A stretch of 32,000 nucleotides of DNA, taken from Schaalia meyeri. GTDB taxonomy: Bacteria; Actinomycetota; Actinomycetes; Actinomycetales; Actinomycetaceae. Positions within the stretch are counted from its first letter, which is position 1. Every line of letters starts with the position of its first letter. The notes under the pieces are model-generated. The model ran no database searches. It saw only the letters and a list, made by a program, of their open reading frames with translations, and had not been told where the DNA came from. Both the position numbers and the translations under genes were made by a program. This document shows, piece by piece, positions 1 through 19,353 of the stretch. The stretch is taken from contig NZ_FNLK01000008.1 in assembly GCF_900105015.1 (NCBI RefSeq), forward strand, positions 132,281 to 164,280. Reading direction: 5' to 3'.

Positions 1-267
1 CATGCGCCCGCGCGTGGTCACGCGCCCGGTCGTCGGGCGAATGATGGAACCCATAATCTTGAGCAGCGTGGACTTACCCGATCCGTTATGCCCCATCAGG
101 CCGACGGATTCGTTGAGACGAACGTCCACGCTCACGGAGTCGAGCGCGCGAAACTTTTGGACGCGGGACCGCGAGGAACGCAGCACGCGGTCCTTCACGG
201 AGGTGTCCCTGTGCAGCTGAAAGACCTTGGAAACGTTGTCCACTCGGACAACCTCGGGCATTGACAT
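1..267 (-). CDS. ABC transporter ATP-binding subunit of a glycopolymer exporter (Wzt/TagH-like); 5' part only, the gene runs off the left edge
   Basis: My translation of the minus strand from ATG 267-265 gives MSMPEVVRVDNVSKVFQLHRDTSVKDRVLRSSRSRVQKFRALDSVSVDVRLNESVGLMGHNGSGKSTLLKIMGSIIRPTTGRV, with Walker A GHNGSGKST. The start overlaps the TAA of the upstream permease (TAATG). It is absent from the ORF track because it has no in-window stop. Confidence 0.85.
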   Translation of the reverse strand, partial: MSMPEVVRVDNVSKVFQLHRDTSVKDRVLRSSRSRVQKFRALDSVSVDVRLNESVGLMGHNGSGKSTLLKIMGSIIRPTTGRVTTRGRM

Positions 268-1205: not shown

Positions 1206-1237
1206 AACTCACTATCTCCGACCACATCGTCAGTCAT

Positions 1238-4419: not shown

Positions 4420-4467
4420 ACTCGGATGAGGGAGGCCCCAAGGTGCTGGGCGACGCTGTATCTTTAC

Positions 4468-6740: not shown

Positions 6741-6746
6741 GCCCTC

Positions 6747-6752
6747 ACAATA
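6747..6752 (-). promoter_or_regulatory. Candidate -10 hexamer TATTGT, positioned for a leaderless transcript of the GT4 gene starting at 6740
   Basis: The minus strand reads CACTATTGTGAGGGCATG. The hexamer fits TANNNT, and its last T is 6 nt before the A of the ATG. That is the usual spacing for actinobacterial leaderless mRNAs. Confidence 0.35.
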
Positions 6753-6796
6753 GTGGACGCGACGGTCTCGTCGGAGGTCGCGCGCGCATCATGCCC

Positions 6797-6802
6797 TACA
6801 AT
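6797..6802 (+). promoter_or_regulatory. Candidate -10 hexamer TACAAT for the plus-strand glycopolymer/lic operon
   Basis: TACAAT lies 34 nt upstream of ATG 6836. A transcript starting about 7 nt downstream would make 6836 the first ATG, which supports that start choice. Confidence 0.4.
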
Positions 6803-6835
6803 GAGGGAAATCCATCGCCACGACCGGGGACCGTC

Positions 6836-7981
6836 ATGCCTGTTTCTCTCTCCTCCACACCAATCCGCGTCCTGATGGACGCCACCGCGATTCCCGCGAA
6901 CCTGGGGGGTGTGGGACGCTACGTGGATGATCTGGTACCCGAACTGGAAAACCAGGGCGTGAAACTGACGATGGCCGTGCAGGAGCGCGACGCGGAACAC
7001 TTCGCCAGGCGCTTGCCATCCGCTCGCATCATTCCCATTTCCCCGCGCTTCGAATCGCGCCCGACGCGCATGGCGTGGGAGCAGACGGGCCTCCCCTCCC
7101 TCGTTCGCAAGGTTCGCCCCGACGTCCTTCACTCCCCGCACTACACGTCGCCGCAGTTCCCGGGCGCGCCTGTCGTCATCACCCTGCACGACGCGACTTT
7201 CTTCTCTCACCCCCAGGCCCACTCGCGCCTGAAGCAACGCTTCTTCACGTACGCCATCCGGCGGGCGATCCGCCGCGCCTCGGCGCTGGTGGTCCCATCT
7301 GAGGCAACGCGCGACGAGACGATCAAGTACGCGGGCGGGGACGCCTCCCAGTTCTACGTCGCCTATCACGGGGTGGACCGGGCGATCTTCCACCCGGTGG
7401 ATGACGCCGAGCGCGAGCGCGTGAAGGAATCCCTCGGGCTGGCGGGGCGAGACTACATCGGTTTCCTGGGCACGCTGGAGCCCCGTAAGAACGTCCCGAA
7501 CCTGGTACGAGGATGGGTGAAGGCCGTGTCCGAGCGCCCGGATCCCCCCGCCCTGGTCCTGGCCGGCGGAAAGGGGTGGGACGAGGACATCGACCCGGCC
7601 CTGGCCTCGGTCCCCCATCAACTGACGGTGCTGCGCCCCGGCTACCTGCCCCTGGAGGACCTGCCCGGTTTCCTGTCGGGTTGTCTCGTCCTGGCCTACC
7701 CGTCGATCGCGGAGGGCTTCGGGCTGCCCGTCCTGGAAGCCATGAGCTGTGGAGCCGCGACGCTGACGACTCGCCTGACCTCCCTGCCCGAGGTTGGCGG
7801 GGACGCCGTGGAGTACTGCGACACGGACCCCGATTCCATCGCCCACGCGCTGGCCGCCCTGCTGGAGGCCCCGGCGCGGCGCGCCGAATTGAGTGAGGCC
7901 GCTATCCAGCGCGCGAGCGAGTTCACGTGGGAACGCGCTGCCCAAGTCCACGCACAGGCCTACCGCGCGGCCGCCGCCTGA
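6836..7981 (+). CDS. Glycosyltransferase family 4
   Basis: MPVSLSSTPIRVLMDATAIPANLGGVGRYVDDL, followed by the C-terminal AYPSIAEGFGLPVLEAMSCGAATLTT (GT4 E-x7-E region). The 520-aa track ORF begins inside the divergent gene and was trimmed. ATG 6791 is an alternative start. Confidence 0.85.
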   Translation: MPVSLSSTPIRVLMDATAIPANLGGVGRYVDDLVPELENQGVKLTMAVQERDAEHFARRLPSARIIPISPRFESRPTRMAWEQTGLPSLVRKVRPDVLHSPHYTSPQFPGAPVVITLHDATFFSHPQAHSRLKQRFFTYAIRRAIRRASALVVPSEATRDETIKYAGGDASQFYVAYHGVDRAIFHPVDDAERERVKESLGLAGRDYIGFLGTLEPRKNVPNLVRGWVKAVSERPDPPALVLAGGKGWDEDIDPALASVPHQLTVLRPGYLPLEDLPGFLSGCLVLAYPSIAEGFGLPVLEAMSCGAATLTTRLTSLPEVGGDAVEYCDTDPDSIAHALAALLEAPARRAELSEAAIQRASEFTWERAAQVHAQAYRAAAA

Positions 7982-8020: not shown

Positions 8021-9574
8021 ATGGCCCCCGCCGATCTTCCCAGCAGTGACACCGAGGAAAAAACCACCATCCTCTCCCGCATCCGCTTTCGTCCAACGCG
8101 CCGCCAGTGGCGAATCCTCGCCGTCATCGCCCTCATCGCCTCCGTGTTCGGGACGGGCGTGGCGTGGGCCGTTTCCTCACCGATTGGCGCCTCACCGGAC
8201 GACGACTATCACCTGGGGTCCATATGGTGCACTCCCCCGCTGTCCAAATCGGGATGCGCGACGGGATACACGGACAAGAACACGTACGGCCCTATCGTTC
8301 CCGAAACGATCGCATCAAACCACGTTGCGTGCTACGCGTTTCACGGGCAGGATTCCGCCGCCTGCGTCAATAAGCTCTCCGACGAACGCTCGGTCGTGAC
8401 CGACCGCTGGGATGACGGAAACTACCCGTGGGGTTACTACCAGTTCCACCACCACTTCATCTCTCATAACACGCACCGCGCAGCCCTGGTCATGCGCGTC
8501 ATCAATCTGAGCATCGCCCTGATCCTGCTCGGGAGCATCGGCGCACTCATGCCGCCTTTCCTGCGTCGCGGCTACGTTCTGGCGATGCTGGCCGCCTGGA
8601 CTCCCATGGGGATCTACTTCATCGCCTCGAACAATCCCTCGTCGTGGGCGTTCAGCGGCGTCCTTGCCTTCGCCGCGGGATTGTGGTCCGCCACCCACAC
8701 CGACGGCTGGCGCCGGTGGGCTCTGATGGGCACGGCCGCGGTGGGCGCGCTCCTGGCGTGCACGTCACGCGCAGATTCGGCGTTCTTCCTTTTCGTCGTC
8801 TCCATGGCCCTGGTTTTCGCGGTTCGCTGGCGACGCAACCGTTGGCCCGAGGGGGTGCTCGCGGCTGTTTCGTCCGTCGTCGGCATTCTCGTCATGAATT
8901 CCACGAGCATGGCTTCCAACAACCTGACGTCGACGAATGCCGCCAAGATGTCCTTCATTCAGGCGCTCGCGGCAAATCTGCATTCCCTCCCCCAGTTCTT
9001 TTCCGGCTTCTACGGGTATCGCTGGGGACCGGGATGGATGGACGTGTCCTACGACGGCTCCGTGTCGACGGTTGGCCTCCTTGTCAGCGGCGCCGTGATT
9101 ATCGCCAGCGCGCGATGCTGGTCATGGCGCAAGGCGATGACCGCGCTGATGGTGGTGGGGGCGATGGCGGGGGTCCCCACGGCCCTGGGCATTCTCCAGA
9201 GGTTCAACAACGTAATTGACTACCAGCCCCGCTACATGATGCCGCTGCTGGCTGTGTTCTTCTTCTTTATGCTCACGATGGATCGACGCGATCGCACTCT
9301 CACGCGCCCGCAGGCATCCACGCTCGGGGTTCTGCTGGGCGGGATGCACTTCTACGCCCTGTTTGTGCTGCTGCTGCGCTACACGCACGGTTCCGCGGCG
9401 ACTAACACTCTCAACCTGAGCAAGACGGCGGCGTGGTGGTGGAAAAACGCGCCGATCGGCCCGAACATGGTGTGTTTAATCGGCTCCGTTTCCTTTATCG
9501 CAGCCCTGGCTCTCTCTCTGCTTTTAACGCGCGAGGAGCCGCTGGGGCGGGGAAGCGCCGCGGCTGAGGCTTGA
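8021..9574 (+). CDS. Large polytopic membrane protein, DUF2142-like / GT-C-like putative extracytoplasmic glycosyltransferase
   Basis: 517 aa with more than 10 hydrophobic spans. An acidic motif directly follows TM1 (SSPIGASPDDDYHLGSIWC), as in DUF2142 and GT-C families. GAGGAAAG sits upstream of the ATG. Confidence 0.6.
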   Translation: MAPADLPSSDTEEKTTILSRIRFRPTRRQWRILAVIALIASVFGTGVAWAVSSPIGASPDDDYHLGSIWCTPPLSKSGCATGYTDKNTYGPIVPETIASNHVACYAFHGQDSAACVNKLSDERSVVTDRWDDGNYPWGYYQFHHHFISHNTHRAALVMRVINLSIALILLGSIGALMPPFLRRGYVLAMLAAWTPMGIYFIASNNPSSWAFSGVLAFAAGLWSATHTDGWRRWALMGTAAVGALLACTSRADSAFFLFVVSMALVFAVRWRRNRWPEGVLAAVSSVVGILVMNSTSMASNNLTSTNAAKMSFIQALAANLHSLPQFFSGFYGYRWGPGWMDVSYDGSVSTVGLLVSGAVIIASARCWSWRKAMTALMVVGAMAGVPTALGILQRFNNVIDYQPRYMMPLLAVFFFFMLTMDRRDRTLTRPQASTLGVLLGGMHFYALFVLLLRYTHGSAATNTLNLSKTAAWWWKNAPIGPNMVCLIGSVSFIAALALSLLLTREEPLGRGSAAAEA

Positions 9575-9624
9575 CTGCTCGGGGCCGAGGAGACGCGGAT
9601 TCTGCGAGACAGCAACACCCTGCG

Positions 9625-9653
9625 TTCACAAAATGAACAAAAGGTGCTAAGCT
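9625..9653 (+). promoter_or_regulatory. Candidate sigma-70-type promoter for the lic genes (-35 TTCACA, 17-nt spacer, -10 TAAGCT)
   Basis: Located in the 125-bp, visibly lower-GC spacer between the DUF2142 gene and the LicC-LicA fusion gene. It is followed by the SD AAGGGGGAGAG and ATG 9700. Confidence 0.4.
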
Positions 9654-9699
9654 CGAACACGCAGTAATCAAACCGTCGAATGAACGAAAGGGGGAGAGC

Positions 9700-11535
9700 A
9701 TGCCTCCCTCCACCACAGGCCCCCTCACCGAGCCCCAGTTCAACATCCTCTCCGCTCTGCTCGAGAGGGAGCGCCCGCTGACCCAGCGCACCCTGTCAGA
9801 GGTCACCGGCATGAGCCTGGGTCGCGTCAACACCGCGACCCGCGAATGCGAAGCCCTGGGATACATCAACGATCGCGCGATCACGCGGTCCGGCCGCGAG
9901 GCCCTGGACCCCTACCGCGTCACGGGCGCCGTCATCATGGCCGCCGGCACGTCCTCCCGCTTCGCCCCCATCAGCTACGAACGCCCCAAGGGCACGCTCA
10001 AGGTGCGCGGAGAAATACTGGTCGAACGCCAGATCCGTCAGCTCCACGAAGCCGGTATCACCAACATCACGATGGTGGTCGGCTACAAAAAGGAGTACTT
10101 CTTCTACCTCGCGGATAAGTACGGGGTCACCATCGTCGTCAACCGCGAATACGCCACCCGCAACAACAATGGCTCCCTGTGGCTCGTGAAGGATCTCCTG
10201 GACAACACCTACGTGTGCTCCTCCGATGACTACTTCACGACCAATCCCTTTGAGCCCTACGTGTACAAGGCCTACTACTCGGCGAACTTCGTCAAGGGGC
10301 CCACGCCCGAGTGGTGCATCAAGGTGGGCCCTGCCGACAGGATTACGGGCGCGACCGTGGGCGGCGCTGACGCGTGGGTCATGCTCGGTCACGTCTACTT
10401 TGACCGCGCCTTCTCCGAGCAATTCCGTGCCGTCTTGGAGCGCGTGTACTCGCTCCCGGAGACCGCGTCGAAGCTGTGGGAGGCCATCTACCTGGACCAC
10501 ATCAAGGCATTCGACATGGTGATCCGCCGATACCCGGAAGGCGTCATCCACGAGTTTGATTCGGTCGATGAGCTGCGCAGCTTCGATCCCCTGTTCATGG
10601 AGAACGTCGACTCGGAGGTCTTCGATCACATCGCCGCTACGCTTCACTGCGCGAAGTCGGACATCCGCGACTTCTATCCGCTTAAGCAGGGCATCACGAA
10701 CCTGTCGTGCCACTTCGCTGTGGGCGACGCCGAGTACGTGTATCGCCATCCCGGCATCGGCACCGAAAAGATCGTGAACCGCGGCGCCGAATTCGCGGCC
10801 CTGCGGCTGGCAGCAAAGCTGGGCATTGACGACACCTTCGTCGCGGGCGACCCGGGATCCGGCTGGAAGATCTCACACTTTGTGTGCGGCGTTCGCAACC
10901 TGGACGTCACCAGGGACGAGGAACTTCGCTCTGCCATGGAAATGGACCGCGCGCTGCACTCCTCGGGGCAGGTCCTTGATCGCTGCTTCGATTTCATCGC
11001 GGAGGCCGACCGCTACGAGGGGCTGCTCAAGCAGTTCGGACCGATTGACGTGCCCGGCTTTGAGGAGCTTCGCGATAAGGTGGCGCGCCTGAAGGCATTC
11101 GCCGACGCCGACGGCTTTGAGGTGGTGCCCTCCCACAACGATTTCTTCCCGCCCAACTTCCTGGTGGCGCCCGACGGCGCGATCAGTCTGATCGACTGGG
11201 AGTACGCGGGCATGTCGGACGTGGCAGCAGACTTCGGCACGATGGTCGTGTGTACGCCCGAGATGACCCGCGAGCGCGCACGGGCCGCCCTGGAGTTTTA
11301 CCTGGGCCGCGTACCGACCCAGCACGAGGAGCGCCACTTCTTCGCCTACGAGGTCTTTGCGGGGTGGTGCTGGTACGTGTGGGCGCTGGTCAAAGAGGCC
11401 GAGGGGGACGACGTGGGCGAGTGGCTCTACACCTACTACTCGCACGCGACGCGCACGCTTGATGCCCTGCTCGCCTCGTACGAGGCCTCCTCCAGCCCTC
11501 GCGACACCGCTCCTCGAGGGGGTGAATCGGCATGA
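9700..11535 (+). CDS. Tri-domain protein: N-terminal winged-helix (MarR-like) domain, LicC-like CTP:phosphocholine cytidylyltransferase, LicA-like choline kinase
   Basis: The wHTH-like region is LTEPQFNILSALLERERPLTQRTLSEVTGMSLGRVNTATRECEALGYI. The nucleotidyltransferase region is GAVIMAAGTSSRFAPISYERPKGTLKVRGE...VVGYKKEYF...NREYATRNNNGS. The kinase region is GITNLS, Brenner motif SHNDFFPPNFLV and choline-kinase motif IDWEYAGMSD. Confidence 0.85.
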   Translation: MPPSTTGPLTEPQFNILSALLERERPLTQRTLSEVTGMSLGRVNTATRECEALGYINDRAITRSGREALDPYRVTGAVIMAAGTSSRFAPISYERPKGTLKVRGEILVERQIRQLHEAGITNITMVVGYKKEYFFYLADKYGVTIVVNREYATRNNNGSLWLVKDLLDNTYVCSSDDYFTTNPFEPYVYKAYYSANFVKGPTPEWCIKVGPADRITGATVGGADAWVMLGHVYFDRAFSEQFRAVLERVYSLPETASKLWEAIYLDHIKAFDMVIRRYPEGVIHEFDSVDELRSFDPLFMENVDSEVFDHIAATLHCAKSDIRDFYPLKQGITNLSCHFAVGDAEYVYRHPGIGTEKIVNRGAEFAALRLAAKLGIDDTFVAGDPGSGWKISHFVCGVRNLDVTRDEELRSAMEMDRALHSSGQVLDRCFDFIAEADRYEGLLKQFGPIDVPGFEELRDKVARLKAFADADGFEVVPSHNDFFPPNFLVAPDGAISLIDWEYAGMSDVAADFGTMVVCTPEMTRERARAALEFYLGRVPTQHEERHFFAYEVFAGWCWYVWALVKEAEGDDVGEWLYTYYSHATRTLDALLASYEASSSPRDTAPRGGESA

Positions 11536-12506
11536 TTACACGCCACGGAGGTAAGCGCTTTGGCATCTTTTCGGGCGCCCTGTGGGGCCTGGATACGGTG
11601 GTTCTGGCGATCGCTCTGGCGATGACGCCCTTTGCCTCGTTCGGGCAGTCGGCGCTGGCCGGGGCGGTCCTGCACGACGTCGCGTGCGCCCTGATCCTGC
11701 TGGCGTACATGGCGATTCGCGGGCGCCTGACGGACACGGTTCGGGCGCTGCGCACCCGGCCGGGGCGCGCGGTGATTGCGGCGGCCCTGCTGGGAGGCCC
11801 ATTCGGCATGAGCGGGTACCTGATTGCGATCGATAACATCGGACCGGGTCCAACCGCCATCATTTCGACGTTCTATCCTGCCCTGGGGACCCTGTTGGCC
11901 TTCGTCCTCCTCAAGGAACGCATGGCGCCGCGCCAGATCATGGCTCTGCTGGTGGCCCTGGCTGCGATCGTGGCGACCGGTTGGTCGGCGACCTCGGAGT
12001 CGGTCGAGGGCGGTAACGCCATCCTGGGTGTCGCGGGCGCATTGGCGTGCGTCATCGGGTGGGGGTCCGAGGCCGTCATCCTCACGTGGGGCATGCGCGA
12101 CGAGGCCGTGGATAACGAGGTGGCCCTGCAGATCCGCGAATCGACTTCTGCTCTGGTCTATCTCTTTGTCGTCGCGCCCATCACCGGTGTTTTCGGCTTC
12201 ACGCTGCACGCCCTGGGTCACCTGTCAGCGGGCGTGGCGCTGCTCGCCGGCCTGGCGGGGACGGCCTCGTACCTGTTCTATTACAAGGCCCTGTCGTTGA
12301 TCGGCGCGTCGCGCGGCATGACGCTGAATATCTCGTATTCGGCGTGGGCGGTCATCTTCGCTCTCGCGCTGCAGGGAACGGTGCCCACCGCGTTCCAGGT
12401 CCTGTGCTGCGTCGTCATCCTGGTGGGGACGATCCTGGCGGCGACCTCCTCGTGGGGTGAGCTGCTTCCCAAGCGCACGGCTACCGTCAGCGATGACCAG
12501 CCGTGA
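11532..12506 (+). CDS. DMT/EamA-family permease, LicB-like putative choline importer
   Basis: 324 aa with about 10 TM spans in two EamA-like halves. An ATGA overlap joins it to the LicC-LicA gene, and licD genes follow immediately. Confidence 0.75.
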   Translation: MITRHGGKRFGIFSGALWGLDTVVLAIALAMTPFASFGQSALAGAVLHDVACALILLAYMAIRGRLTDTVRALRTRPGRAVIAAALLGGPFGMSGYLIAIDNIGPGPTAIISTFYPALGTLLAFVLLKERMAPRQIMALLVALAAIVATGWSATSESVEGGNAILGVAGALACVIGWGSEAVILTWGMRDEAVDNEVALQIRESTSALVYLFVVAPITGVFGFTLHALGHLSAGVALLAGLAGTASYLFYYKALSLIGASRGMTLNISYSAWAVIFALALQGTVPTAFQVLCCVVILVGTILAATSSWGELLPKRTATVSDDQP

Positions 12507-12541
12507 GACAATGGCTGGTGGGCGCGCGTGCGCCCACCAGC
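12473..12541 (+). repeat. Copy A of a duplicated junction (last 11 codons of the licB-like gene, stop, GC hairpin)
   Basis: By hand alignment to 13487-13551, 60 of 65 aligned positions are identical, with one 4-nt indel. The offset is 1014 nt. Confidence 0.9.
12515..12540 (+). other. GC-rich hairpin: 11-bp perfect stem CTGGTGGGCGC / GCGCCCACCAG with loop GCGT
   Basis: Read directly from the sequence. It lies 9 nt after the licB-like stop and 11 nt before the GGAGGA of licD1. No T-tract follows, so its role (terminator, attenuator or RNA-processing/stability element) is open. Confidence 0.6.
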
Positions 12542-12560
12542 CACCCCACCCGGAGGACTT

Positions 12561-13520
12561 ATGACAACACCCCGCAGTGACCTGCGTAAGCTCCACATGC
12601 TGCTGACCTTCATCCTGGCCGAGTTTGATCGGGTGTGCTCACAGATCGGCGTCACCTATGCGCTCTACGGCGGCAGCACGATCGGGGCGGTCCGCCACGG
12701 CGGTTTCATCCCGTGGGACGACGACATCGACGTCTTCATGATTCGTCAGGACTACGAACGCTTCCTGCGTGAGGCCCCCGATCTCCTGGCCCAGGGGTTC
12801 CGCATCGACAATCAGCGGACGGTGCCCCGCTACCATCTATTGTTTTCCAAGCTCGGCCTGGACGGGACCGTGTTTCTCTCTCAGGGGGAGGTTAACCCCG
12901 ACTACACCCCTCCGATTTTCCTGGATATTTTCCCGCTGGACGCTGTTCCCAGCGATCAGCGTCGCTTCCGTGCGATGCGCCGCCGGACCTGGTGGTGGGG
13001 GCGCCTGCTGTTCCTGTCGGGCATTCCGACGCCGAAACTGCCGGACATGGCGCCGTGGAAGCGATCCCTGGTGCACGCGGTCACGCGAACGGCGAACGTG
13101 GCGTTGCGGGCCTGCCGCCTGTCCCCCGTCGCGCTGTATGAACGCTGGGAGAAGGCGGCCCGGTCGGCCGAAGACGAAGCGACGGACACCTACACGGACT
13201 TCACGATGCGCGACCCGCAGAACTGGATCGTTCGCCGCGACGAGTTGCTGCCGACGCGCCGCGTTCCTTTTGAGGCTATCGAGGCCCCGGTCCCCCGCGA
13301 CGTGGAGGCGTTGCTGACGCGAGGCTACGGCGACTACATGCGGATTCCTGACCCTGCCGACCGCCTCACCCACCTGCCAGAAAAGATCCTCTTTGGCAGC
13401 TACGATCCCGACCGGGGAGGCGTCCCGGACCTCCTGGCACCCCGCGACCCGGCGGATTCGTCCCCCGGGGACGCGAACACGACCACGCACACGGCTACCG
13501 TCAGCGACGACCAGCCGTGA
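12561..13520 (+). CDS. licD: LicD-family phosphotransferase, paralog 1 (phosphocholine or other phospho-alcohol transferase)
   Basis: YALYGGSTIGAVRHGGFIPWDDDIDVFMIRQDYERF and the C-terminal RGYGDYMRIP. GGAGGA at 12552-12557 precedes ATG 12561. It carries an extra disordered tail of about 35 aa ending in TATVSDDQP. Confidence 0.9.
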   Translation: MTTPRSDLRKLHMLLTFILAEFDRVCSQIGVTYALYGGSTIGAVRHGGFIPWDDDIDVFMIRQDYERFLREAPDLLAQGFRIDNQRTVPRYHLLFSKLGLDGTVFLSQGEVNPDYTPPIFLDIFPLDAVPSDQRRFRAMRRRTWWWGRLLFLSGIPTPKLPDMAPWKRSLVHAVTRTANVALRACRLSPVALYERWEKAARSAEDEATDTYTDFTMRDPQNWIVRRDELLPTRRVPFEAIEAPVPRDVEALLTRGYGDYMRIPDPADRLTHLPEKILFGSYDPDRGGVPDLLAPRDPADSSPGDANTTTHTATVSDDQP

Positions 13521-13551
13521 GACAATGACGGGTGGGCGCGCACCCACCAGC
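13487..13551 (+). repeat. Copy B of the duplicated junction (last 11 codons of licD1, stop, decayed hairpin)
   Basis: See copy A. The stem is reduced here to GGTGGG/CCCACC by a 4-nt deletion and one substitution. The same GGAGGACTTATG follows at 13565-13576. Confidence 0.9.
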
Positions 13552-13573
13552 TATCATCCACAGTGGAGGACTT

Positions 13574-14431
13574 ATGGCGACACCCCAGAGCGACCTGGCC
13601 AAAGTGCAGAAGCTTCTGACGTTGATCCTGGCCGAACTCGATCGTGTCTGTCAGCTCATCGGGGTTTCCTACGCGATCTACGGAGGCACCGCTATCGGCG
13701 CGATTCGCCACGGCGGTTTCATCCCGTGGGACGACGACATCGACGTGATGATGACGCGCACCGACTACGAGCGCTTTCTCGTTCAGGCGCCCCAGCACAT
13801 GGATGAGCGCTTCCGCTTGGACAACACCCGCACGCGCGACGACTTTCCGTTCATGTTCACGAAGATGGTGATACCCGGGACCCTGCTCGTCCCAGAAGCG
13901 GCCCGTGATTCGACGTATCGGATGCCGTTTTTCCTCGACATTCTCCCCCTGGATGAAATTCCCTCCGACGAGGAGGCTTTCCGTGCGATGTCTCGCGCGT
14001 CCTGGTGGTGGGGGCGCCTGCTGTTCCTGCAGGGAACTGCTCGCCCCTACCTCATCAATCCGCCCGCATGGAAAAAAGCCCTGATTTATTCGGCGACGAC
14101 TGTGGCGCATCTGGGGCTCAAGGCGCTTCGCGCAACCCCGCGCAGCCTGCAGGCCCGCTGGGAACGTGCCGTTCGTCGTTACGAGGGGGCGGGGACGGGA
14201 GTGTACGCCGACTTTACGATGCGTGACCCGCAGCATTGGATCGTGCGTGAGGAGGAGTTTTTCCCCACCCGCCGGGTTCCCTTCGAGGATATTACCGTGA
14301 TGATCCAGCATAGCTACGACGCCCTGCTACGCCGGGGGTACGGTGACTACATGCAGTTGCCACCGCCGGACAAGCGCTACAACCACGCCCCCGCCGTCGT
14401 TGATTTCGGCCCGTACGAGTCCATCCTGTAA
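13574..14431 (+). CDS. licD: LicD-family phosphotransferase, paralog 2
   Basis: YAIYGGTAIGAIRHGGFIPWDDDIDVMMTRTDYERF and RGYGDYMQLP. GGAGGA at 13565-13570 precedes ATG 13574. Confidence 0.9.
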   Translation: MATPQSDLAKVQKLLTLILAELDRVCQLIGVSYAIYGGTAIGAIRHGGFIPWDDDIDVMMTRTDYERFLVQAPQHMDERFRLDNTRTRDDFPFMFTKMVIPGTLLVPEAARDSTYRMPFFLDILPLDEIPSDEEAFRAMSRASWWWGRLLFLQGTARPYLINPPAWKKALIYSATTVAHLGLKALRATPRSLQARWERAVRRYEGAGTGVYADFTMRDPQHWIVREEEFFPTRRVPFEDITVMIQHSYDALLRRGYGDYMQLPPPDKRYNHAPAVVDFGPYESIL

Positions 14432-14458
14432 TCCGCCCCCCCTGTTGATCGGACACAC

Positions 14459-15358
14459 ATGAGCGCAGCAGATCCCGCAACCCTGGCAGCCATTCAGCGC
14501 ATCACCAAGCGGTGCCTGGCTGAAATCGACCGCGTCTGCACTCTCCTGGACATTCGCTACGTCGCCTACGGAGGGACCGCGATCGGAGCGGTCCGGCACG
14601 GGGGGTTCATCCCGTGGGACGACGACGGGGACGTGTGCATGCCGCGCGCGGACTATGAGCGCTTCATTGCCGAGGCCCCCGCCGTTCTCGGCGAGGAATT
14701 TTTCGTTGCTTCCCCGTCATCTCACTCCGACTATCCAATTAGCTTCGGTGTGCTCGGCCTCAAGGGGTCGGAGTTCATATCAAAGGTCGCCAAGGATAGG
14801 CCGTTCCGCATGCCCATCGGCGTGGATCTGTTCGTGCTCGATGAGATCGCCGACTCCCCTGCCCGCTTCCGTTCGCAGATGCGGGGAACATGGCTGTGGG
14901 CGAGGCTCATGTTTCTTCGCTCGATTCCGTGCCCCCCAACGGGACTGCCCACGCCGGCTCGACAGCTCGCGGCGGTTGCGATGGCCAGCGCCCACTGGGG
15001 CATGCGGTTGCTGCGCGTGACCGAGGCATCCCTGTACCGCCGGTGGCTGAAGGCGGCCCTCAAGGGGCGGGCAGAACCCCAGAAGGCGGCCGATGGGACG
15101 ACCCTCTTCGGCGACTTTTCGACGCGCGATCCGCGCCGCTGGAGCGCCTCGGAAGCGGAGCTTTTCCCCGCGCGCACCGTTCCCTTTGAGGACATGACGA
15201 TCCGCATTCCCGCCGCGTACGACGTCATCTTGACTCGGGGATACGGCGACTACATGCGCATCCCCGACCCGCAGGAGCGCGTCACCCACGAGCCTTTCCG
15301 CATCGTGTTTGGTCCTCACGATCCGGGTCCCGCAGCTCCGGGGGGTGAGGGCGTGTGA
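14459..15358 (+). CDS. licD: LicD-family phosphotransferase, paralog 3
   Basis: YVAYGGTAIGAVRHGGFIPWDDDGDVCMPRADYERF and RGYGDYMRIP. The acidic motif is DDDGD, where the other three copies have DDDID. Confidence 0.9.
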   Translation: MSAADPATLAAIQRITKRCLAEIDRVCTLLDIRYVAYGGTAIGAVRHGGFIPWDDDGDVCMPRADYERFIAEAPAVLGEEFFVASPSSHSDYPISFGVLGLKGSEFISKVAKDRPFRMPIGVDLFVLDEIADSPARFRSQMRGTWLWARLMFLRSIPCPPTGLPTPARQLAAVAMASAHWGMRLLRVTEASLYRRWLKAALKGRAEPQKAADGTTLFGDFSTRDPRRWSASEAELFPARTVPFEDMTIRIPAAYDVILTRGYGDYMRIPDPQERVTHEPFRIVFGPHDPGPAAPGGEGV

Positions 15359-16710
15359 CAGGCAAAGAGACCACAGTATTTCCCTCTGGGGAGTCGGGAA
15401 GCGACGGGGAGGTCCATGCCGACGTTGCCGAGGACGCGCGCAAGTCGCGCGGGCAGCTAGGCAGGGACTACCTGTGGAACACGGCGGCCTCCCTGATGTC
15501 GAGCCTCGCGGTCATCATCATGGGCGTGGCGATCGTGCGTTCGGGGACCACCGAGTCGTTCGCCCGAGCCCAGTACGGACTCTTCACCCTGGCGCTGGCC
15601 ATCGGCCAGCAGTACCAAACTGTCGGCATGTACGAGGTGCGCACATTCCACGTCACCGACGTGCGCAGGCGCTTCGACTTCGGCACCTACCTGTCGACGA
15701 GGATCCTCACCTGCTTCGTTATGGTTGCCCTCATCGGCTACCACGCCTGGGACGTGTCGCTTAAGGACCCTTATCCGGCATTGACGGTCATTGGTTCCAT
15801 AGCGTTCTTGCGCATTTTCGACGCCTTCGAGGACGTGTACTACTCCGAGTTCCAGCGCTCGGGACGCCTTGACATCGCGGGCAAAGCCTGCTTCGCCCGC
15901 ATCTTCACTACGACGATGCTGTGGTCGGTCCTCTACTGGGTGACCCAGGATCTCCTCGTATCTACACTCATCACGTTCGCAGTGACCTGCGTCATCCTCT
16001 TAGTTGTCTACGGTGCGCCGGCGCGCGGCATGTTCTCGCTGCGCCCCTCGATCGCGCTGGGCGCCGTCGGTCGGATCCTGTGGGAGTGTTTGCCCCTGTT
16101 CGTCGCCGCATTCCTCAACCAGTACTTGGCGAATGCTCCGCGTTTCGCGATCCACTCGACTCTCGGCGACGAGGAGCTCGGCGTTTTCGCCATCGTCTTT
16201 ATGCCGGCCATCGCAATCAACATGCTCTCCCTCTTCGTCTTTCGCCCACTTCTGACTCGCATGGCGCTGCACTGGGCGGAGGGAGACCGCAGCACATTCA
16301 TGGCGATCGTCCGGCGCGGCCTCGCAACCACCGGCCTCGCCTTTTGTCTCGTCGCCGCCGTGACCTACGTGGTCGGCGCTCCCCTGCTCTCCCTCGTTTT
16401 CGGAACCGATGTGTCCGGCTATGTCCGCGAGCTCATGGTCCTGGTCTTGGCCGGCGCCCTCAATGCTGCCGGCGTTATTCTCTACTATGCTCTGGCCACG
16501 ATGAGGCGCCTGAGGGCAGTCCTGGCCGCGTACGCCGTTGCGGCCGCGTACGCCTACGTGACCACGCCGCTGCTAACGGAATCGCTAGGTATGCTCGGCG
16601 CTTCGGTTGCCTACGCCACAATCATGACTCTGCTCGCCCTGCTCTTCGGCCTCATCATGGTAGTTTCGCTGCGGCAGCGTCGTGAGGAAACGGAGCCCAC
16701 TGGTGATTGA
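15355..16710 (+). CDS. MOP-superfamily polysaccharide/teichoic-acid flippase (Wzx/TacF-like)
   Basis: 451 aa with about 12-14 TM spans and an N-terminal YLWNTAASLMSSLAVIIMGVAIVR typical of Wzx-type flippases. The GTG start forms a GTGA overlap with the licD3 stop. Confidence 0.7.
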   Translation: MTGKETTVFPSGESGSDGEVHADVAEDARKSRGQLGRDYLWNTAASLMSSLAVIIMGVAIVRSGTTESFARAQYGLFTLALAIGQQYQTVGMYEVRTFHVTDVRRRFDFGTYLSTRILTCFVMVALIGYHAWDVSLKDPYPALTVIGSIAFLRIFDAFEDVYYSEFQRSGRLDIAGKACFARIFTTTMLWSVLYWVTQDLLVSTLITFAVTCVILLVVYGAPARGMFSLRPSIALGAVGRILWECLPLFVAAFLNQYLANAPRFAIHSTLGDEELGVFAIVFMPAIAINMLSLFVFRPLLTRMALHWAEGDRSTFMAIVRRGLATTGLAFCLVAAVTYVVGAPLLSLVFGTDVSGYVRELMVLVLAGALNAAGVILYYALATMRRLRAVLAAYAVAAAYAYVTTPLLTESLGMLGASVAYATIMTLLALLFGLIMVVSLRQRREETEPTGD

Positions 16711-16896
16711 TTGTACTCGCGCGGCGCCGCACGCTTCGCTCCGCGCTCGGCCTGCCTATCCCGGGCGCTGCGGTAGCGGGAGTGCGATGCGTTTGTGGGG
16801 CCGGGCCTCTTTCGCAGTGATGCCTATCGCGGTGATACGAGGCCGCCCGCACCCGTACAGCCCGGATCGTTGCCAGCCACTGACAAGGAGCAGTGA

Positions 16897-18036
16897 ATGC
16901 GTATTGCGTTCGTCGTGAACAGCTATCCGCCCCGGCTGGGCGGATTGGAGTCCCACATTTACCACCTGTCGGTATCCCTGGCACGGTTGGGGCACCAGGT
17001 GTACGTGCTGACCATTTCCGATGAGCCGGGTCATCGCACCCAGGAGCGGGTCGACATCCGCACCAATCGGCGTTATTTCCCCATCGCGGACATCATCAGC
17101 TTCCCCGCCGTGGGAACGACTCGCCAGATCGCGCGCTTCCTGAAGCGAGAGAGCATCGACGCCGTCAGCGTGCACACGCGGTTCTTCCCCATGAGCTTCG
17201 TCGGGGTCCGCGCCGCACGCAAGGCGGGTATCCCGGTCATCCACACGGAGCACGGGTCGGGGTTTGTCGCCTCCTCGTCGCCCGTCATCAGATCGGCGTC
17301 GCGTGCGGTTGACGTGACGATGGGACGCTACGTGCTGCGCCACGCGGACCGCGTGCTGGGCGTGTCCGAGCAGGCCGCCGCTTTCGCCTCACGCCTGGGC
17401 GGGGTGAACACTCAGGTGTTCTACAACGCGATCACGCCGCCCGCGCGCCGCTCAGTGCCGATCAATGATCGCCACCGTCACCTGGTCTTCGTTGGCCGCA
17501 TGGTCCCGGGAAAGGGCTGGGACACGTTTATCGAGGCCGTGGCGCGGCTGCGCGAGGCGGGTGCGCAGGTGAGCGGCGAACTGCTGGGCACGGGCGCCGA
17601 CCTTGAGGCCGCACGCGCGCTCATTGCGCGGCGCGGCCTCACCGAGCAGGTCTGCGCGCCGGGTCGCGTGAGCGCCGACGAGGTCCGTTCCCGTCTGGCC
17701 GGTGCGACCCTCGTGAATCCCACGGTGTTGTCTGAGGGCTTCCAAACGACGCTGCTGGAGGCCCTCGCTGAACGCGGGCGCGTCGTCACCTTCACCGTCC
17801 CGGGGGCGCGGGTCCTGGCCGAGCAGGGAAATCCGGTGATCATCACCGCCGAGAGGACGGTCGATTCGCTGGTCGCCACCCTGCGCGATTTCCTGGAGGC
17901 CCCGCCGCCCCTGGGGGAGCCCGACCTGATCGACGCCTGGACGTGGCCGGTGCGGGCACGCGAGTACGCGGCCATCGCCTCGTCGCTGATCGCGGGTTCT
18001 GGCCCCGATGTCCCGCACCCCCTGGCCCCACACTGA
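16897..18036 (+). CDS. Glycosyltransferase family 4
   Basis: MRIAFVVNSYPPRLGGLESHIYHLSVSLARLGHQVYVLT, with AAGGAG upstream of the ATG and a C-terminal GT-B half (SEGFQTTLLEALAERG). Confidence 0.85.
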   Translation: MRIAFVVNSYPPRLGGLESHIYHLSVSLARLGHQVYVLTISDEPGHRTQERVDIRTNRRYFPIADIISFPAVGTTRQIARFLKRESIDAVSVHTRFFPMSFVGVRAARKAGIPVIHTEHGSGFVASSSPVIRSASRAVDVTMGRYVLRHADRVLGVSEQAAAFASRLGGVNTQVFYNAITPPARRSVPINDRHRHLVFVGRMVPGKGWDTFIEAVARLREAGAQVSGELLGTGADLEAARALIARRGLTEQVCAPGRVSADEVRSRLAGATLVNPTVLSEGFQTTLLEALAERGRVVTFTVPGARVLAEQGNPVIITAERTVDSLVATLRDFLEAPPPLGEPDLIDAWTWPVRAREYAAIASSLIAGSGPDVPHPLAPH

Positions 18037-18219
18037 GGCTCTATCCTCGCGCCCTCCTTGACGAAAAGGGGCGCCCGTACCGGCCAGCGGCAGCCCGCCT
18101 GCGAGGCGCGGTGTTACGCCGCCTCACCCTTCACCTCATCCGGTGAAACAGGCACGTGCCCACGGCGCGCGGTTACACGAGCCGGGGGCGTGGCCGCGCC
18201 AATGAATATTCCCCGCGCA

Positions 18220-19077
18220 TCACCCGGCGTAGGGCTGGTCGCCCACCCATTCCGCGGAGCGGACGTGCGCGGGCGGGCGCTGGTCCTCAGGGGGGATGCG
18301 CTGCCAGTCGCCGTAGTAGTCGCGCAGGATTTTCTCGGCCTGTGCGGGGATGGCGAAGCGCCGTCCCTCGAAGCTCGCCGTGCGCGTCGGGAAGAGTTCG
18401 TCGGGCCGGATGGTGTTCCGGCTCATGACGTCGTCGACCAGCAGCACCCAGCGTTCGTTATCCTCCTCGCTTACCTGCGAGCGGTGACAGCCCTGGGCCG
18501 TCTCGTCTTGCCTGCGTGAAATGGCATAGAGATTGGCAAAACGCGTGATCGGGTACAGCAGGTACTTGATGGCGCGACGCGCAGCGGACGTGGCGTATCG
18601 CGGGTTCGATGCCGCGATGTACTTCCACCACACCAGCCGGTGTTCCTTCCGCGCCGCGCGGTGAACGTGCGGATCGGTCACGTCGACGCGCTCGAGCGGG
18701 AAAATGTCGACCCACAGCCCCAGGGTGCCGGCCGATTCGTCGAGGAATGACTCAACGGCCCGAGTGCGCGTATCGACCAGCTTGCAGTAGGAGTTGATTG
18801 ACGTGCGATCCCGGTAGCTCGCCAGCGCATAGTGCTCGCCGAGCGCCCCTTCCTGCCACAGGCGATAGAGCTTCTCGTAGTCGTCGCGGGGCATGTAGAC
18901 GTCGATGTCGTCGTCCCACGGGATGAAACCGCGATGCCGCAGCGCCCCGATGAGCGTTCCGTACGCCAGCGCATAGGACAGTTGATGGTCGCGGCAGACG
19001 CGATCGAGTTCGGAGAGAATATCCAGTTCAATCGCCTTCACCTGGCGCGCCTCAAGTTGGGTCATCGGCTCTCTCAT
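18220..19077 (-). CDS. licD: LicD-family phosphotransferase, paralog 4 (opposite strand)
   Basis: YALAYGTLIGALRHRGFIPWDDDIDVYMPRDDYEKL and the C-terminal DYYGDWQRIPP. The start is uncertain: ATG 19077 (MREPMTQLEAR) is chosen, 19065 and 19188 are alternatives. Confidence 0.85.
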   Translation of the reverse strand: MREPMTQLEARQVKAIELDILSELDRVCRDHQLSYALAYGTLIGALRHRGFIPWDDDIDVYMPRDDYEKLYRLWQEGALGEHYALASYRDRTSINSYCKLVDTRTRAVESFLDESAGTLGLWVDIFPLERVDVTDPHVHRAARKEHRLVWWKYIAASNPRYATSAARRAIKYLLYPITRFANLYAISRRQDETAQGCHRSQVSEEDNERWVLLVDDVMSRNTIRPDELFPTRTASFEGRRFAIPAQAEKILRDYYGDWQRIPPEDQRPPAHVRSAEWVGDQPYAG

Positions 19078-19242
19078 CGTGTCGAATTGAGGGGTTGTGA
19101 ACTGGTGTCCAGGGTAGTACACCGCCGCGGGCGTGCGCACTTCCTTCCCTCTCCTGGGCCCTTCGGACATAGGGGCCTGGCCGCGCACGGCGACCGTAAC
19201 GGGGTTTCGTCACCCTTAGATCGGGCCACACAAATCCCCATT

Positions 19243-19254: not shown

Positions 19255-19353
19255 TAGGTTTAGCGCGTCGCTCCGGGGAACAACACCAGCGCTGATACCA
19301 TGTAGCCCTAACAATTTATCAAATCCGTTGTGCCGCCACACGAAAGTCTCGCC

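What the first reader, a model, noticed from the sequence alone, without database searches (positions are those of the whole stretch)
9625..19077. Complete lic-type choline uptake/activation/transfer module with four LicD paralogs inside an actinobacterial wall-glycopolymer locus
Seen in sequence: one contiguous block encodes a LicC-like cytidylyltransferase and a LicA-like kinase (fused), a LicB-like DMT permease, and four ORFs with the LicD signature (GG..IGA.RH.GFIPWDDD.D plus C-terminal GYGDYM/YGDW). GT2/GT4 glycosyltransferases, a flippase and an ABC exporter flank them. Established: in Streptococcus pneumoniae and Haemophilus influenzae the lic genes import choline, make CDP-choline and transfer phosphocholine onto teichoic acid or LOS, with one LicD per decorated position. 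Phosphocholine display drives host mimicry and recognition by CRP and PAF receptor. Inference: this high-GC organism decorates a cell-wall polysaccharide at several positions or on several acceptors. Four paralogs in one locus is unusually many. LicD relatives also transfer other phospho-alcohols such as ribitol-P, so the paralogs need not share one donor.
Basis: partly seen in the sequence, partly recalled or inferred. Interest (0 to 1): 0.7.

Follow-up and report, generated by a model that had tools for sequence, protein, structure and literature searches.

The report
Choline-decoration operon with four LicD transferases
This stretch of the oral bacterium Schaalia (Actinomyces) meyeri carries a complete set of genes for taking up choline and attaching phosphocholine to a cell-wall sugar polymer. 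It has four transferases where relatives have at most two, and its first enzyme carries a DNA-binding domain that probably switches the operon on and off.

Summary
The window is Schaalia meyeri chromosome, 100% identical to CP066065.1. Bases 9700-19188 encode these genes:
- a fused LicC-LicA enzyme, whose best solved-structure matches are pneumococcal LicC and LicA;
- a LicB permease that keeps all 10 functional residues of pneumococcal LicB;
- four intact LicD-family transferases (Pfam E 1e-32 to 3e-43);
- a MOP-fold flippase and a GT4 glycosyltransferase.

These sit inside a glycosyltransferase and Wzm/Wzt exporter locus. The choline reading is well supported by sequence. The chemistry is untested.

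Four LicDs is high. In 80 related species-level loci, 0-2 lie near licCA. The four are old, separate orthogroups. S. meyeri merges two alternative cassettes seen in its nearest relatives, with a 59-nt repeated junction marking the join.

LicCA carries a conserved N-terminal winged helix. An inverted repeat, tGTTCA-N24/25-TGAACa, overlaps the licCA promoter in 67 of 77 loci across two phyla, where about 1 is expected by chance. It is absent where the winged helix is lost. This suggests an enzyme that also represses its own operon.

Lic genes in Actinomyces were already reported in 2023, so the module itself is a modest novelty. The regulatory fusion appears undescribed.

The parts
9624..9658 (.). 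Inverted repeat GTTCA-N25-CGAAC overlapping a -35-like TTCACA and a -10-like TAAGCT. Proposed operator and promoter of the lic operon.
   Evidence: GTTCA and GAAC are invariant in 8 aligned Actinomycetaceae upstream regions. The 34-35-nt repeat lies upstream of licCA in 67 of 77 loci, at 3.95/kb against 0.045/kb elsewhere.
9700..11535 (+). licCA: winged helix (aa 9-72), LicC-like CTP:phosphocholine cytidylyltransferase (aa 76-299) and LicA-like choline kinase (aa 327-588). Its stop overlaps the licB start.
   Evidence: Pfam. PDB matches 1JYK 9e-35 and 4R77 5.5e-26. Residue maps. The winged helix is conserved in 11 Actinomycetaceae proteins and modelled at pLDDT about 90 with helix-helix-helix-wing-helix topology.
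11532..12506 (+). licB, a DMT/EamA choline permease.
   Evidence: EamA E 1e-16. Its only PDB match is LicB 7B0K, 2.7e-32. W17, H43, Y109, W167, E170, R191, Y233, Y236, N252 and Y255 are all conserved (residues from PMC8890701).
12469..12527 (+). Copy 1 of the 59-nt junction repeat: the last 36 nt of licB plus the spacer.
   Evidence: 92% identical to 13483-13541, whereas the flanking licD coding DNA is about 75% identical.
12561..13520 (+). licD_a (the ORF opens at 12528; annotated start 12561 after the ribosome-binding site GGAGGA). Its 3' end reads into a remnant of the licB 3' end.
   Evidence: PF04991 E 3e-35. Orthologues at 77-79% in L002 and L004. The C-terminus ...TATVSDDQP is the same as that of LicB.
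13483..13541 (+). Copy 2 of the 59-nt junction repeat. It marks the left edge of the inserted licD_b-licD_c-wzx block.
13574..14431 (+). licD_b.
   Evidence: PF04991 E 7e-35. Orthologues at 85-86% in L001 and L003, and this orthogroup is the most widely represented among the Actinomycetaceae loci.
14436..14442 (+). Poly-C tract in the licD_b/licD_c spacer.
   Evidence: C7 here and in CP066065, C6 in CP012072 and two metagenome contigs. It is the only homopolymer of 7 or more in 9500-19400.
14459..15358 (+). licD_c. Its stop overlaps the start of the next gene.
   Evidence: PF04991 E 1e-32. Orthologue at 87% in L001. Its 90%-identity cluster has 3030 members.
15355..16710 (+). Wzx-like MOP-superfamily flippase, a functional analogue of TacF.
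   Evidence: No sequence-family match. Foldseek top 50 are all MATE, MurJ or WzxE, from a low-confidence model. Homologues lie within 10 kb of licCA in 25 of 46 full-flank loci.
16897..18036 (+). GT4 glycosyltransferase of the type-2 cassette.
   Evidence: Pfam GT4/GT1. 81% identical to the L002 gene that directly follows licD_a there.
18220..19188 (-). licD_d (annotated start 19065 or 19140). It converges on the GT4 gene and diverges from a GntR gene.
   Evidence: PF04991 E 3e-43. It is the most divergent paralogue, 34% identical to licD_a. Orthologue at 78% in L002.
8021..9574 (+). DUF2142 membrane protein. A weak WsfD-like match hints at a membrane hexosyltransferase; the GT-C fold is my assumption and was not tested.
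   Evidence: PF09913 E 2.7e-39. Weak NCBIfam WsfD match, below cut-off. Found next to licCA only in Actinomycetaceae loci.
267..7981 (.). Glycan backbone genes: ABC-2 (Wzm) permease 267-1205(-), GT2 1238-2206(-), epimerase 2196-3122(-), WsaF-like GT 3115-4389(-), GT2 4468-5625(-), GT4 5622-6740(-), GT4 6836-7981(+).
   Evidence: Pfam. Gene calls, and the Wzt ATPase with a Wzt_C domain just left of the window.

Best explanation
**What it is.** A Lic-type phosphocholine decoration operon embedded in a cell-wall polysaccharide locus of Schaalia meyeri.

1. LicB imports choline with protons.
2. The C-terminal LicA domain of LicCA phosphorylates the choline.
3. The central LicC domain couples phosphocholine to CTP to give CDP-choline.
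4. The four LicD transferases move phosphocholine from CDP-choline onto sugar hydroxyls of lipid-linked glycan intermediates at the inner face of the membrane.

**Two routes (inferred from synteny in relatives).**
- LicD_b and LicD_c work with the adjacent MOP flippase on a unit that is flipped across the membrane.
- LicD_a and LicD_d work with the GT4 enzyme on a glycan that leaves by another route, probably the Wzm/Wzt ABC exporter.
- S. meyeri therefore displays phosphocholine at more positions, or on two glycans.

**Origin of the four genes.** They arose by insertion of a 3.4-kb 'licB-3' remnant, licD_b, licD_c, wzx' block into a 'licD_a, GT4, licD_d' locus.

**Regulation (inferred from comparative genomics).** The N-terminal winged helix of LicCA binds the tGTTCA-N24/25-TGAACa repeat that straddles the -35 and -10 elements. 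The enzyme would then repress its own operon, with occupancy set by a ligand of the enzyme domains (choline, phosphocholine, CTP or CDP-choline).
For: **Family membership.** Pfam matches. The best and near-exclusive solved-structure matches are pneumococcal LicC, LicA and LicB.

**Choline specificity.**
- LicB keeps 10 of 10 functional residues (PMC8890701).
- LicA keeps T29, D176, N181, D194, E196, Y197, W251 and W254, and Y268 becomes W (PMC4364537).
- LicC keeps D107, W136, W191, E216 and D218.

**LicD integrity.** All four keep the WDDD.DV acidic motif and 50 invariant columns. All four are intact in every S. meyeri genome or contig examined that reaches that far; four contigs end within the start of licD_a or in licB.

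**Operon structure.** The licCA/licB and licD_c/wzx junctions overlap by 4 nt.

**Only one local donor pathway.** No other nucleotidyltransferase, PEP mutase or CDP-ribitol/glycerol synthase is present in the window.

**Cassette origin.**
- The four LicDs form four orthogroups.
- Type-1 and type-2 loci exist in the nearest relatives.
- The blocks are collinear with those loci.
- The 59-nt junction repeat is 92% identical.

**Regulation.**
- The winged helix is conserved in Actinomycetaceae and in 7 of 9 distant homologues, and is modelled at pLDDT about 90.
- The operator is present in 67 of 77 loci against about 1 expected (P about 5e-115 from background density).
- It is absent in the 4 loci with a weak or missing winged helix (Fisher P 1.6e-4).
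- Extra copies lie just upstream of licB in L015 and L041.

**Literature.** Oral Actinomyces react with the anti-phosphocholine antibody TEPC-15 and carry Lic-1 homologues (PMC10434233).
Against: - No chemistry exists. No phosphocholine-bearing glycan of any Actinomyces or Schaalia has been described (PMC10434233), and I found nothing on S. meyeri.
- The LicC pocket differs from pneumococcal LicC at D192 (E here, as in the phosphonate enzyme PntC), D105 (S) and Y190 (L) (PMC6697681). LicA E213 is T.
- LicD donor specificity cannot be read from sequence, and Mf1 also accepts CDP-ethanolamine (PMC11982090).
- The two-route assignment rests on a handful of related loci. Only one of them (L002) is type 2.
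- The flippase model has low confidence.
- licD_d has no operator nearby.
- The repeat overlaps promoter elements, so part of its conservation could reflect the promoter itself.
- Half-sites 29-30 bp apart are unusual for winged-helix dimers.
- Many of the 77 loci are close relatives of each other (71 distinct sites).
Confidence: 0.7

Rival explanations
1. Mixed donors. One or more of the four LicD paralogues transfers a different phospho-alcohol or phosphonate (phosphoethanolamine, 2-aminoethylphosphonate, ribitol- or glycerol-phosphate). The donor would be made elsewhere in the genome, or by a LicC domain with relaxed specificity.
For: - LicD-family enzymes use other donors. FKRP is the only solved LicD-like structure matched, and only over the DxD region.
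- Mf1 transfers phosphoethanolamine from CDP-ethanolamine (PMC11982090).
- LicD-like genes sit in phosphonate clusters of Atopobium and Olsenella, which also carry lic genes (PMC6697681).
- The LicC pocket here has E at the D192 position and S at D105.
- LicD_d is very divergent, at 34% identity, and is transcribed separately without the operator.
Against: - LicCA is the only activating enzyme in the 32-kb window.
- All four orthogroups occur next to licCA-licB in other species.
- The fused kinase and the LicB pocket look choline-specific.
- A phosphonate needs no kinase.
Confidence: 0.2
2. Redundant mosaic. The four genes are a by-product of recombination between serotype-like cassettes. Only a subset is expressed or has an acceptor in S. 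meyeri, so the count says little about the number of decorated positions.
For: - The locus is clearly a merger, with a repeated junction.
- L004 shows a broken hybrid licD between licD_a and wzx, so decay does occur in this region.
- G+C is lower (0.60-0.65) than in the flanks (about 0.69-0.72), as in variable surface-polysaccharide loci.
Against: - All four are full length with intact catalytic motifs.
- They are 99.4-100% conserved across five S. meyeri genomes or contigs.
- Each is 77-87% identical to its orthologue but only 34-53% to its paralogues, so each has been kept as a distinct gene.
Confidence: 0.12
3. Membrane lipid synthesis. LicCA makes CDP-choline for phosphatidylcholine, as reported for the Treponema denticola LicCA fusion (from my own knowledge), rather than for glycan decoration.
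For: The same LicC-LicA fusion order as in Treponema. Many Firmicutes licCA loci have no LicD within 10 kb.
Against: - Four LicD transferases, a flippase and glycosyltransferases are co-located, and several are translationally coupled.
- No CDP-alcohol phosphatidyltransferase is present in the window.
Confidence: 0.04

Closest known systems
Streptococcus pneumoniae lic1/lic2 loci (licA, licB, licC, licD1, licD2, tacF)
   Same: - The same four activities, with direct sequence homology for LicA, LicB and LicC.
- Multiple LicDs.
- A MOP flippase encoded beside the licD genes.
- Decoration of a lipid-linked wall glycan before export (PMC13385700, PMC4364537).
   Different: - LicC and LicA are fused here and carry an N-terminal winged helix.
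- There are four LicDs rather than two.
- The flippase has no detectable sequence similarity to anything in the PDB sequence set.
- There are no tarI/tarJ genes.
- The glycan genes point to a Wzm/Wzt-exported polysaccharide rather than a ribitol-phosphate teichoic acid.
Lic-1 homologues reported in Actinomyces viscosus and A. gerencseriae (PMC10434233)
   Same: The same family of bacteria and the same pathway inferred by homology. Those species react with TEPC-15.
   Different: That survey did not cover S. meyeri and did not mention the fusion, the winged helix, the number of LicDs or the cassette structure.
Haemophilus influenzae lic1 (licA-D)
   Same: A single operon for uptake, activation and transfer onto a surface glycan.
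   Different: - Haemophilus has separate genes, one LicD, and phase variation through a tetranucleotide repeat in licA (from my own knowledge).
- No such repeat is present here. There is only a C6/C7 polymorphism in an intergenic spacer.
NadR and BirA, enzymes that are also repressors
   Same: - The logic and, for NadR, the domain order match: an N-terminal helix-turn-helix, then a nucleotidyltransferase, then a kinase, next to a transporter gene (from my own knowledge).
- A conserved palindromic site sits at the protein's own promoter.
   Different: No homology is claimed or tested. The half-sites are about 30 bp apart. DNA binding and the controlling ligand are untested.
Phosphonate tailoring (PntC plus LicD-like transferases) of Atopobium and Treponema (PMC6697681)
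   Same: A LicC-like cytidylyltransferase works with LicD-like transferases. The D192-equivalent is Glu, as in Tde-PntC.
   Different: - No PEP mutase gene is present.
- A choline kinase is fused and a LicB permease is adjacent.
- Similarity to Tde-PntC (6PD1, 1.8e-8) is far weaker than to LicC (9e-35).

Membership tests
Lic-1 phosphocholine pathway | LicB: a DMT/EamA permease with the aromatic choline box (W17, Y109, W167, Y233, Y255), Y236 and N252, and the proton-coupling residues H43, E170 and R191 | tested here: met
   EamA match. 7B0K is the sole PDB match, at 2.7e-32. 10 of 10 residues are identical.
Lic-1 phosphocholine pathway | LicA: a choline kinase fold with the catalytic Asp/Asn/Asp residues and an aromatic pocket for the quaternary amine | tested here: met
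   PF01633 scores 33.3 bits against a cut-off of 29. 4R77 matches at 5.5e-26. T29, D176, N181, D194, E196, Y197, W251 and W254 are kept, Y268 becomes W, V178 becomes F and E213 becomes T.
Lic-1 phosphocholine pathway | LicC: a cytidylyltransferase with a phosphocholine-sized pocket (small Asp at positions 105 and 192, aromatic box) | tested here: inconclusive
   The full-length match to 1JYK is 9e-35 at 32% identity. D107, W136, W191, E216 and D218 are kept. D192 becomes E, D105 becomes S and Y190 becomes L.
Lic-1 phosphocholine pathway | LicD: a PF04991 domain with the acidic DxD-type metal and nucleotide motif | tested here: met
   Four proteins, with E 1e-32 to 3e-43 over the whole model. 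WDDD.DV is invariant.
Lic-1 phosphocholine pathway | Phosphocholine is actually present on a surface glycan and depends on external choline | not testable with these tools
   No structural or antibody data for S. meyeri were found.
LicD1/LicD2 orthology | Phylogenetic grouping with characterised phosphocholine transferases rather than with FKTN/FKRP-type ribitol-phosphate transferases | not tested
   - Sequences of characterised LicD1, LicD2 and LicD could not be obtained with the tools.
- The only indirect evidence is Mf1 model scores of 54-82 bits, below the cut-off of 225.
- FKRP matches over 40 residues only.
TacF-type teichoic acid flippase (MOP superfamily) | MOP fold | tested here: inconclusive
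   The model has pLDDT 55 and pTM 0.60. The Foldseek top 50 are all MATE, MurJ or WzxE, with TM-scores mostly 0.4-0.56.
TacF-type teichoic acid flippase (MOP superfamily) | Sequence homology to TacF or to Polysacc_synt families | tested here: not met
   No Pfam match even at E 10, no NCBIfam match and no PDB sequence match at E 10. TacF may not yet be in the PDB copy.
Enzyme-repressor (NadR/BirA-like logic) | A DNA-binding domain fused to the enzyme and conserved across taxa | tested here: met
   HTH_24 and MarR_2 matches. Conserved in 11 Actinomycetaceae proteins and in 7 of 9 distant homologues. Modelled as a winged helix at pLDDT about 90.
Enzyme-repressor (NadR/BirA-like logic) | A conserved symmetric site at the protein's own promoter that co-occurs with the DNA-binding domain | tested here: met
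   Present in 67 of 77 loci against about 1 expected. Absent in the 4 loci with a weak or missing winged helix.
Enzyme-repressor (NadR/BirA-like logic) | Ligand-dependent DNA binding and repression | not testable with these tools
   Needs EMSA or footprinting and reporter assays.
Phosphonate tailoring (Pnt) | A PEP mutase (Ppm) gene fused or adjacent to the cytidylyltransferase | tested here: not met
   No Ppm-type domain in any gene of the window. A kinase is fused instead.

The most novel reading that the evidence does not exclude
LicCA is a three-function protein: choline kinase, phosphocholine cytidylyltransferase and transcription factor.

- Its N-terminal winged helix binds the tGTTCA-N24/25-TGAACa site over its own promoter, and in some species also the licB promoter.
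- Phosphocholine display would then be tuned directly to the supply of choline or CDP-choline.
- The circuit is shared by the 77 species-level loci analysed here, drawn from at least 570 genomic matches, in oral, gut and vaginal Actinomycetota and Bacillota (Actinomyces/Schaalia, Atopobium, Olsenella, Collinsella, Eggerthellaceae, Gardnerella, Lachnospiraceae).
- In S. meyeri it controls a doubled set of transferases that decorate two glycans or export routes.
Probability: 0.5. Interest if true: 0.65.

Novelty: new variant of a known kind. Interest (0 to 1): 0.5.

Why it matters
**Host interaction.** Phosphocholine on bacterial surfaces is read by the host through C-reactive protein, natural anti-phosphocholine antibodies and the PAF receptor. 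Oral Actinomyces have been known since the late 1990s to react with anti-phosphocholine antibody, yet the carrier molecule is still undefined (PMC10434233).

**A defined target.** This locus gives a concrete and genetically tractable candidate in S. meyeri, an oral commensal that causes actinomycosis. It comprises one activation gene, one permease and four separable transferases.

**Surface variation.** The mosaic structure shows that the licD region behaves like a serotype locus in oral Schaalia. That could drive differences between strains and species in immune recognition and phage adsorption.

**Regulation.** The conserved winged helix and operator suggest a simple, widespread way in which commensals couple phosphocholine display to choline availability. 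This can be tested directly with one purified protein and a 50-bp probe.

Tried and rejected
- **Promoter and terminator scan of 7900-20300.** Nothing above the shuffles, and the scan missed the licCA promoter.
- **RNA elements.** No Rfam family anywhere in the window. The licCA leader does not fold better than shuffles (z -0.37). I therefore rejected an RNA element as the explanation for the upstream conservation.
- **Short palindromes.** The inverted-repeat tool found none in 9540-9720. The site only emerged from cross-species alignment.
- **Sequence searches for the 451-aa protein.** Pfam at E 10, NCBIfam and PDB sequences all gave nothing. Its homologue search returned only proteins at about 75% identity, so the structure model is shallow.
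- **Winged helix alone against 1.84 billion representatives.** This gave 130 mostly short, probably truncated proteins and no insight into other fusion partners.
- **Operator near licD_d or elsewhere in the window.** Only chance-level matches were found.
- **Phase variation.** There are no tetranucleotide or long homopolymer repeats in the lic genes.
- **DUF2142 and flippase co-occurrence.** Not significant (Fisher P 0.054).
- **Phylogeny against characterised LicD1, LicD2 and FKTN.** Not possible, because those sequences were not retrievable.
- **Literature on S. meyeri or Schaalia phosphocholine, or on a winged-helix LicCA.** Nothing was found.

Full report
**Identity and gene map**

Exact protein look-ups place the window in Schaalia (formerly Actinomyces) meyeri. 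The lic region is 100% identical to CP066065.1 and 99.4-99.5% identical to three other S. meyeri genomes or contigs.

Third-position G+C picks one reading frame per locus. Pfam scans then give this map:

| Coordinates | Gene |
|---|---|
| 267-1205 (-) | ABC-2 permease; its Wzt ATPase with a Wzt_C domain lies just left of the window |
| 1238-2206 (-) | GT2 |
| 2196-3122 (-) | NAD-dependent epimerase |
| 3115-4389 (-) | WsaF-like glycosyltransferase |
| 4468-5625 (-) | GT2 |
| 5622-6740 (-) | GT4 |
| 6836-7981 (+) | GT4 |
| 8021-9574 (+) | DUF2142 |
| 9700-11535 (+) | licCA |
| 11532-12506 (+) | licB |
| 12561-13520, 13574-14431, 14459-15358 (+) | three licD genes |
| 15355-16710 (+) | 451-aa membrane protein |
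| 16897-18036 (+) | GT4 |
| 18220-19188 (-) | fourth licD |
| downstream | GntR regulator, alpha-L-fucosidase, a sugar ABC importer, an AdnAB-like helicase-nuclease |

The four LicD ORFs match PF04991 over the whole model, with E 1e-32 to 3e-43. They share 50 invariant columns, including RH.GFIPWDDD.DV and YGD.

The fused protein's best solved-structure matches are pneumococcal LicC (1JYK, 9e-35, residues 76-299) and LicA (4R77, 5.5e-26, residues 331-588). The permease matches only pneumococcal LicB (7B0K, 2.7e-32).

The 451-aa protein has no sequence-family match. A low-confidence model of it (pLDDT 55, pTM 0.60) matches only MOP-superfamily transporters, with WzxE and MurJ giving the best TM-scores (0.50-0.56). 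'Flippase' is therefore reasonable but not firm.

**Is the substrate choline?**

I mapped published functional residues onto the HMMER alignments.

- *LicB.* All seven choline-coordinating residues and the three proton-coupling residues of pneumococcal LicB (PMC8890701) are identical.
- *LicA.* The catalytic residues T29, D176, N181, D194 and E196 are kept. All four aromatic-box positions stay aromatic: Y197, W251 and W254 are identical and Y268 is W. V178 is F and the rim residue E213 is T (PMC4364537).
- *LicC.* The metal ligands and W136/W191 are kept. D192 is Glu, D105 is Ser and Y190 is Leu. Rice et al. (PMC6697681) suggest that these small Asp residues may provide room for phosphocholine, and note Glu at the equivalent positions in the phosphonate enzyme Tde-PntC. 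The LicC pocket is therefore the one soft spot.

A fused kinase and an adjacent choline permease argue against a phosphonate substrate. The window holds no PEP mutase and no other activating enzyme.

**How unusual are four LicDs?**

A genome scan with a LicCA alignment found at least 570 matches. I analysed the best 80, one genome per species. An HMM of the four LicDs finds 0-2 LicD ORFs within 10 kb of licCA in those loci and 4 in the window.

A neighbour-joining tree puts the four S. meyeri proteins in four separate orthogroups, each with orthologues in other species. Orthologue identities are 77-87%, against 34-53% between paralogues.

The closest relatives carry one of two layouts:
- licB, licD_b, licD_c, flippase (L001, L003);
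- licB, licD_a, GT4, then licD_d on the opposite strand (L002).

DNA comparison shows that the window is the second layout with a 3.4-kb block of the first inserted between licD_a and the GT4 gene, which are adjacent in L002. The left edge is marked by a 59-nt duplicate of the licB 3' end plus spacer. That duplicate is 92% identical, against about 75% for the neighbouring licD DNA, and it gives LicD_a the same C-terminal residues as LicB.

L004 has a broken hybrid licD at the same place. G+C is lower across the locus than in the flanks. The region behaves like a recombining surface-polysaccharide locus. All four genes are intact in every S. meyeri contig that reaches that far.

LicCA starts with a winged helix (HTH_24 E 1.7e-7, MarR_2). 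This is not a start-codon artefact:
- residues 9-72 are conserved in 11 Actinomycetaceae proteins that are 67-82% identical overall;
- the domain is detected in Atopobium, Collinsella, Gardnerella, Christensenellaceae, Hungatella, Lachnoanaerobaculum and Erysipelothrix homologues, 7 of 9 tested;
- it is modelled with pLDDT about 90 as helix, helix, helix, beta-hairpin, helix.

Aligning the DNA upstream of licCA from eight Actinomycetaceae showed only GTTCA.A and T....T.GAAC as invariant. They frame a -35-like TTCACA and a -10-like TAAGCT.

Across loci, the inverted repeat GTTC-N26/27-GAAC (34-35 nt; half-site tGTTCA) lies between 250 nt upstream and 40 nt downstream of the licCA start in 67 of 77 loci. 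Its density there is 3.95 per kb, against 0.045 per kb in the other 1.39 Mb of the same loci. About one locus would be expected by chance.

Further support comes from the exceptions and extras:
- The four loci whose N-terminal domain is weak or missing (Propionibacterium MAG, two Sutterella MAGs, Selenomonas) lack the site (Fisher P 1.6e-4).
- L050 has tandem licCA-licB pairs, and its site lies at the 5' end of the first pair.
- In L015 and L041 an extra site lies just upstream of licB.
- No Rfam family or stable RNA fold explains the region.

I read this as an operator for the fused winged helix, which would make LicCA an autoregulated enzyme-repressor. The caveats are real:
- many loci are close relatives of each other (71 distinct sites);
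- the site overlaps promoter elements;
- half-sites 29-30 bp apart are unusual;
- nothing shows binding.

I found no paper describing this fusion or site.

**Mechanism proposed**

Inferred from homology: choline enters through LicB. LicCA converts it to CDP-choline. The LicDs transfer phosphocholine to lipid-linked glycans in the cytoplasm.

Inferred from synteny:
- LicD_b and LicD_c act on a unit exported by the adjacent MOP flippase. Homologues of that flippase lie within 10 kb of licCA in 25 of 46 full-flank loci.
- LicD_a and LicD_d act with the GT4 enzyme on a glycan exported otherwise, probably by Wzm/Wzt. L002 has neither the flippase nor DUF2142.

Inferred from comparative genomics: the operon from 9700 to at least 16710 is transcribed from the promoter at 9626-9650 under LicCA control. 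licD_d is transcribed separately.

**Comparison with what is known**

The pathway is the Lic-1 pathway of S. pneumoniae and H. influenzae. Its presence in Actinomyces viscosus and A. gerencseriae, which react with TEPC-15, was reported in 2023 without any glycan structure (PMC10434233). GenBank already labels these S. meyeri genes as lic-1 and LicD genes.

What differs from the textbook loci:
- the winged helix-LicC-LicA fusion with its operator;
- four LicDs assembled from two cassettes;
- a flippase with no detectable sequence relationship to known families;
- embedding in an ABC-exporter glycan locus.

I rate the finding as a new variant of a known kind, with moderate interest.

Noticed in passing
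window 9624-9658, and upstream of licCA in L001-L080: A widely spaced inverted repeat, tGTTCA-N24/25-TGAACa, overlaps the licCA promoter. It is conserved in 67 of 77 loci from Actinomycetota and Bacillota and absent where LicCA has lost its winged helix. It is the likely operator of the fused DNA-binding domain.
   Followed up: yes
GenBank calls the protein either 'MarR family transcriptional regulator' or 'phosphotransferase'.
   Followed up: yes
window 12469-12527 and 13483-13541: A 59-nt direct repeat (92% identical) made of the licB 3' end plus spacer. It gives LicD_a the same C-terminal residues as LicB and marks the insertion of the licD_b-licD_c-flippase block.
   Followed up: yes
window 14436-14442: A poly-C tract in the licD_b/licD_c spacer is C7 in this strain and C6 in three other S. 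meyeri sequences. It is the only long homopolymer in the lic region. Any effect on licD_c translation is unknown.
   Followed up: partly
window 9651-9685: A second, degenerate half-site arrangement (GCTCGAAC...ATGAAC) overlaps the right arm of the operator and the ribosome-binding region. The TGAACGAAAGG part is conserved in the closest relatives. It may be a second site or just the ribosome-binding site.
   Followed up: no
L030 12134-13753; L050 6989-12670: Some Actinomycetaceae MAGs carry two licCA copies. In L030 the second copy follows licB and aligns over only 541 of 611 residues (the missing part was not located). L050 has two tandem licCA-licB pairs. This hints at a second activated substrate in those organisms.
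   Followed up: no
L079 9905-11644 (Selenomonas): Here LicC and LicA are separate ORFs split by a stop codon. There is no winged helix and no upstream repeat.
   Followed up: partly
L004 13721-14302: A truncated or hybrid licD lies between licD_a and the flippase in a close Schaalia relative. It is evidence of recombination and decay among licD paralogues.
   Followed up: partly
window 19354-24895: A GntR/UTRA regulator, an alpha-L-fucosidase and a sugar ABC importer (two permeases and a binding protein) sit directly beside the lic locus. This looks like a host-glycan foraging cluster.
   Followed up: no
window 25080-31962: Two large helicase-nuclease genes (UvrD-like plus PD-(D/E)XK domains) that overlap by 179 nt as called. 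They resemble the actinobacterial AdnAB double-strand-break resection pair.
   Followed up: no
window 14459-15358: The 90%-identity cluster of LicD_c has 3030 member sequences, against 5 for LicCA and 10 for LicB. This transferase is unusually conserved and abundant in public metagenomes.
   Followed up: no
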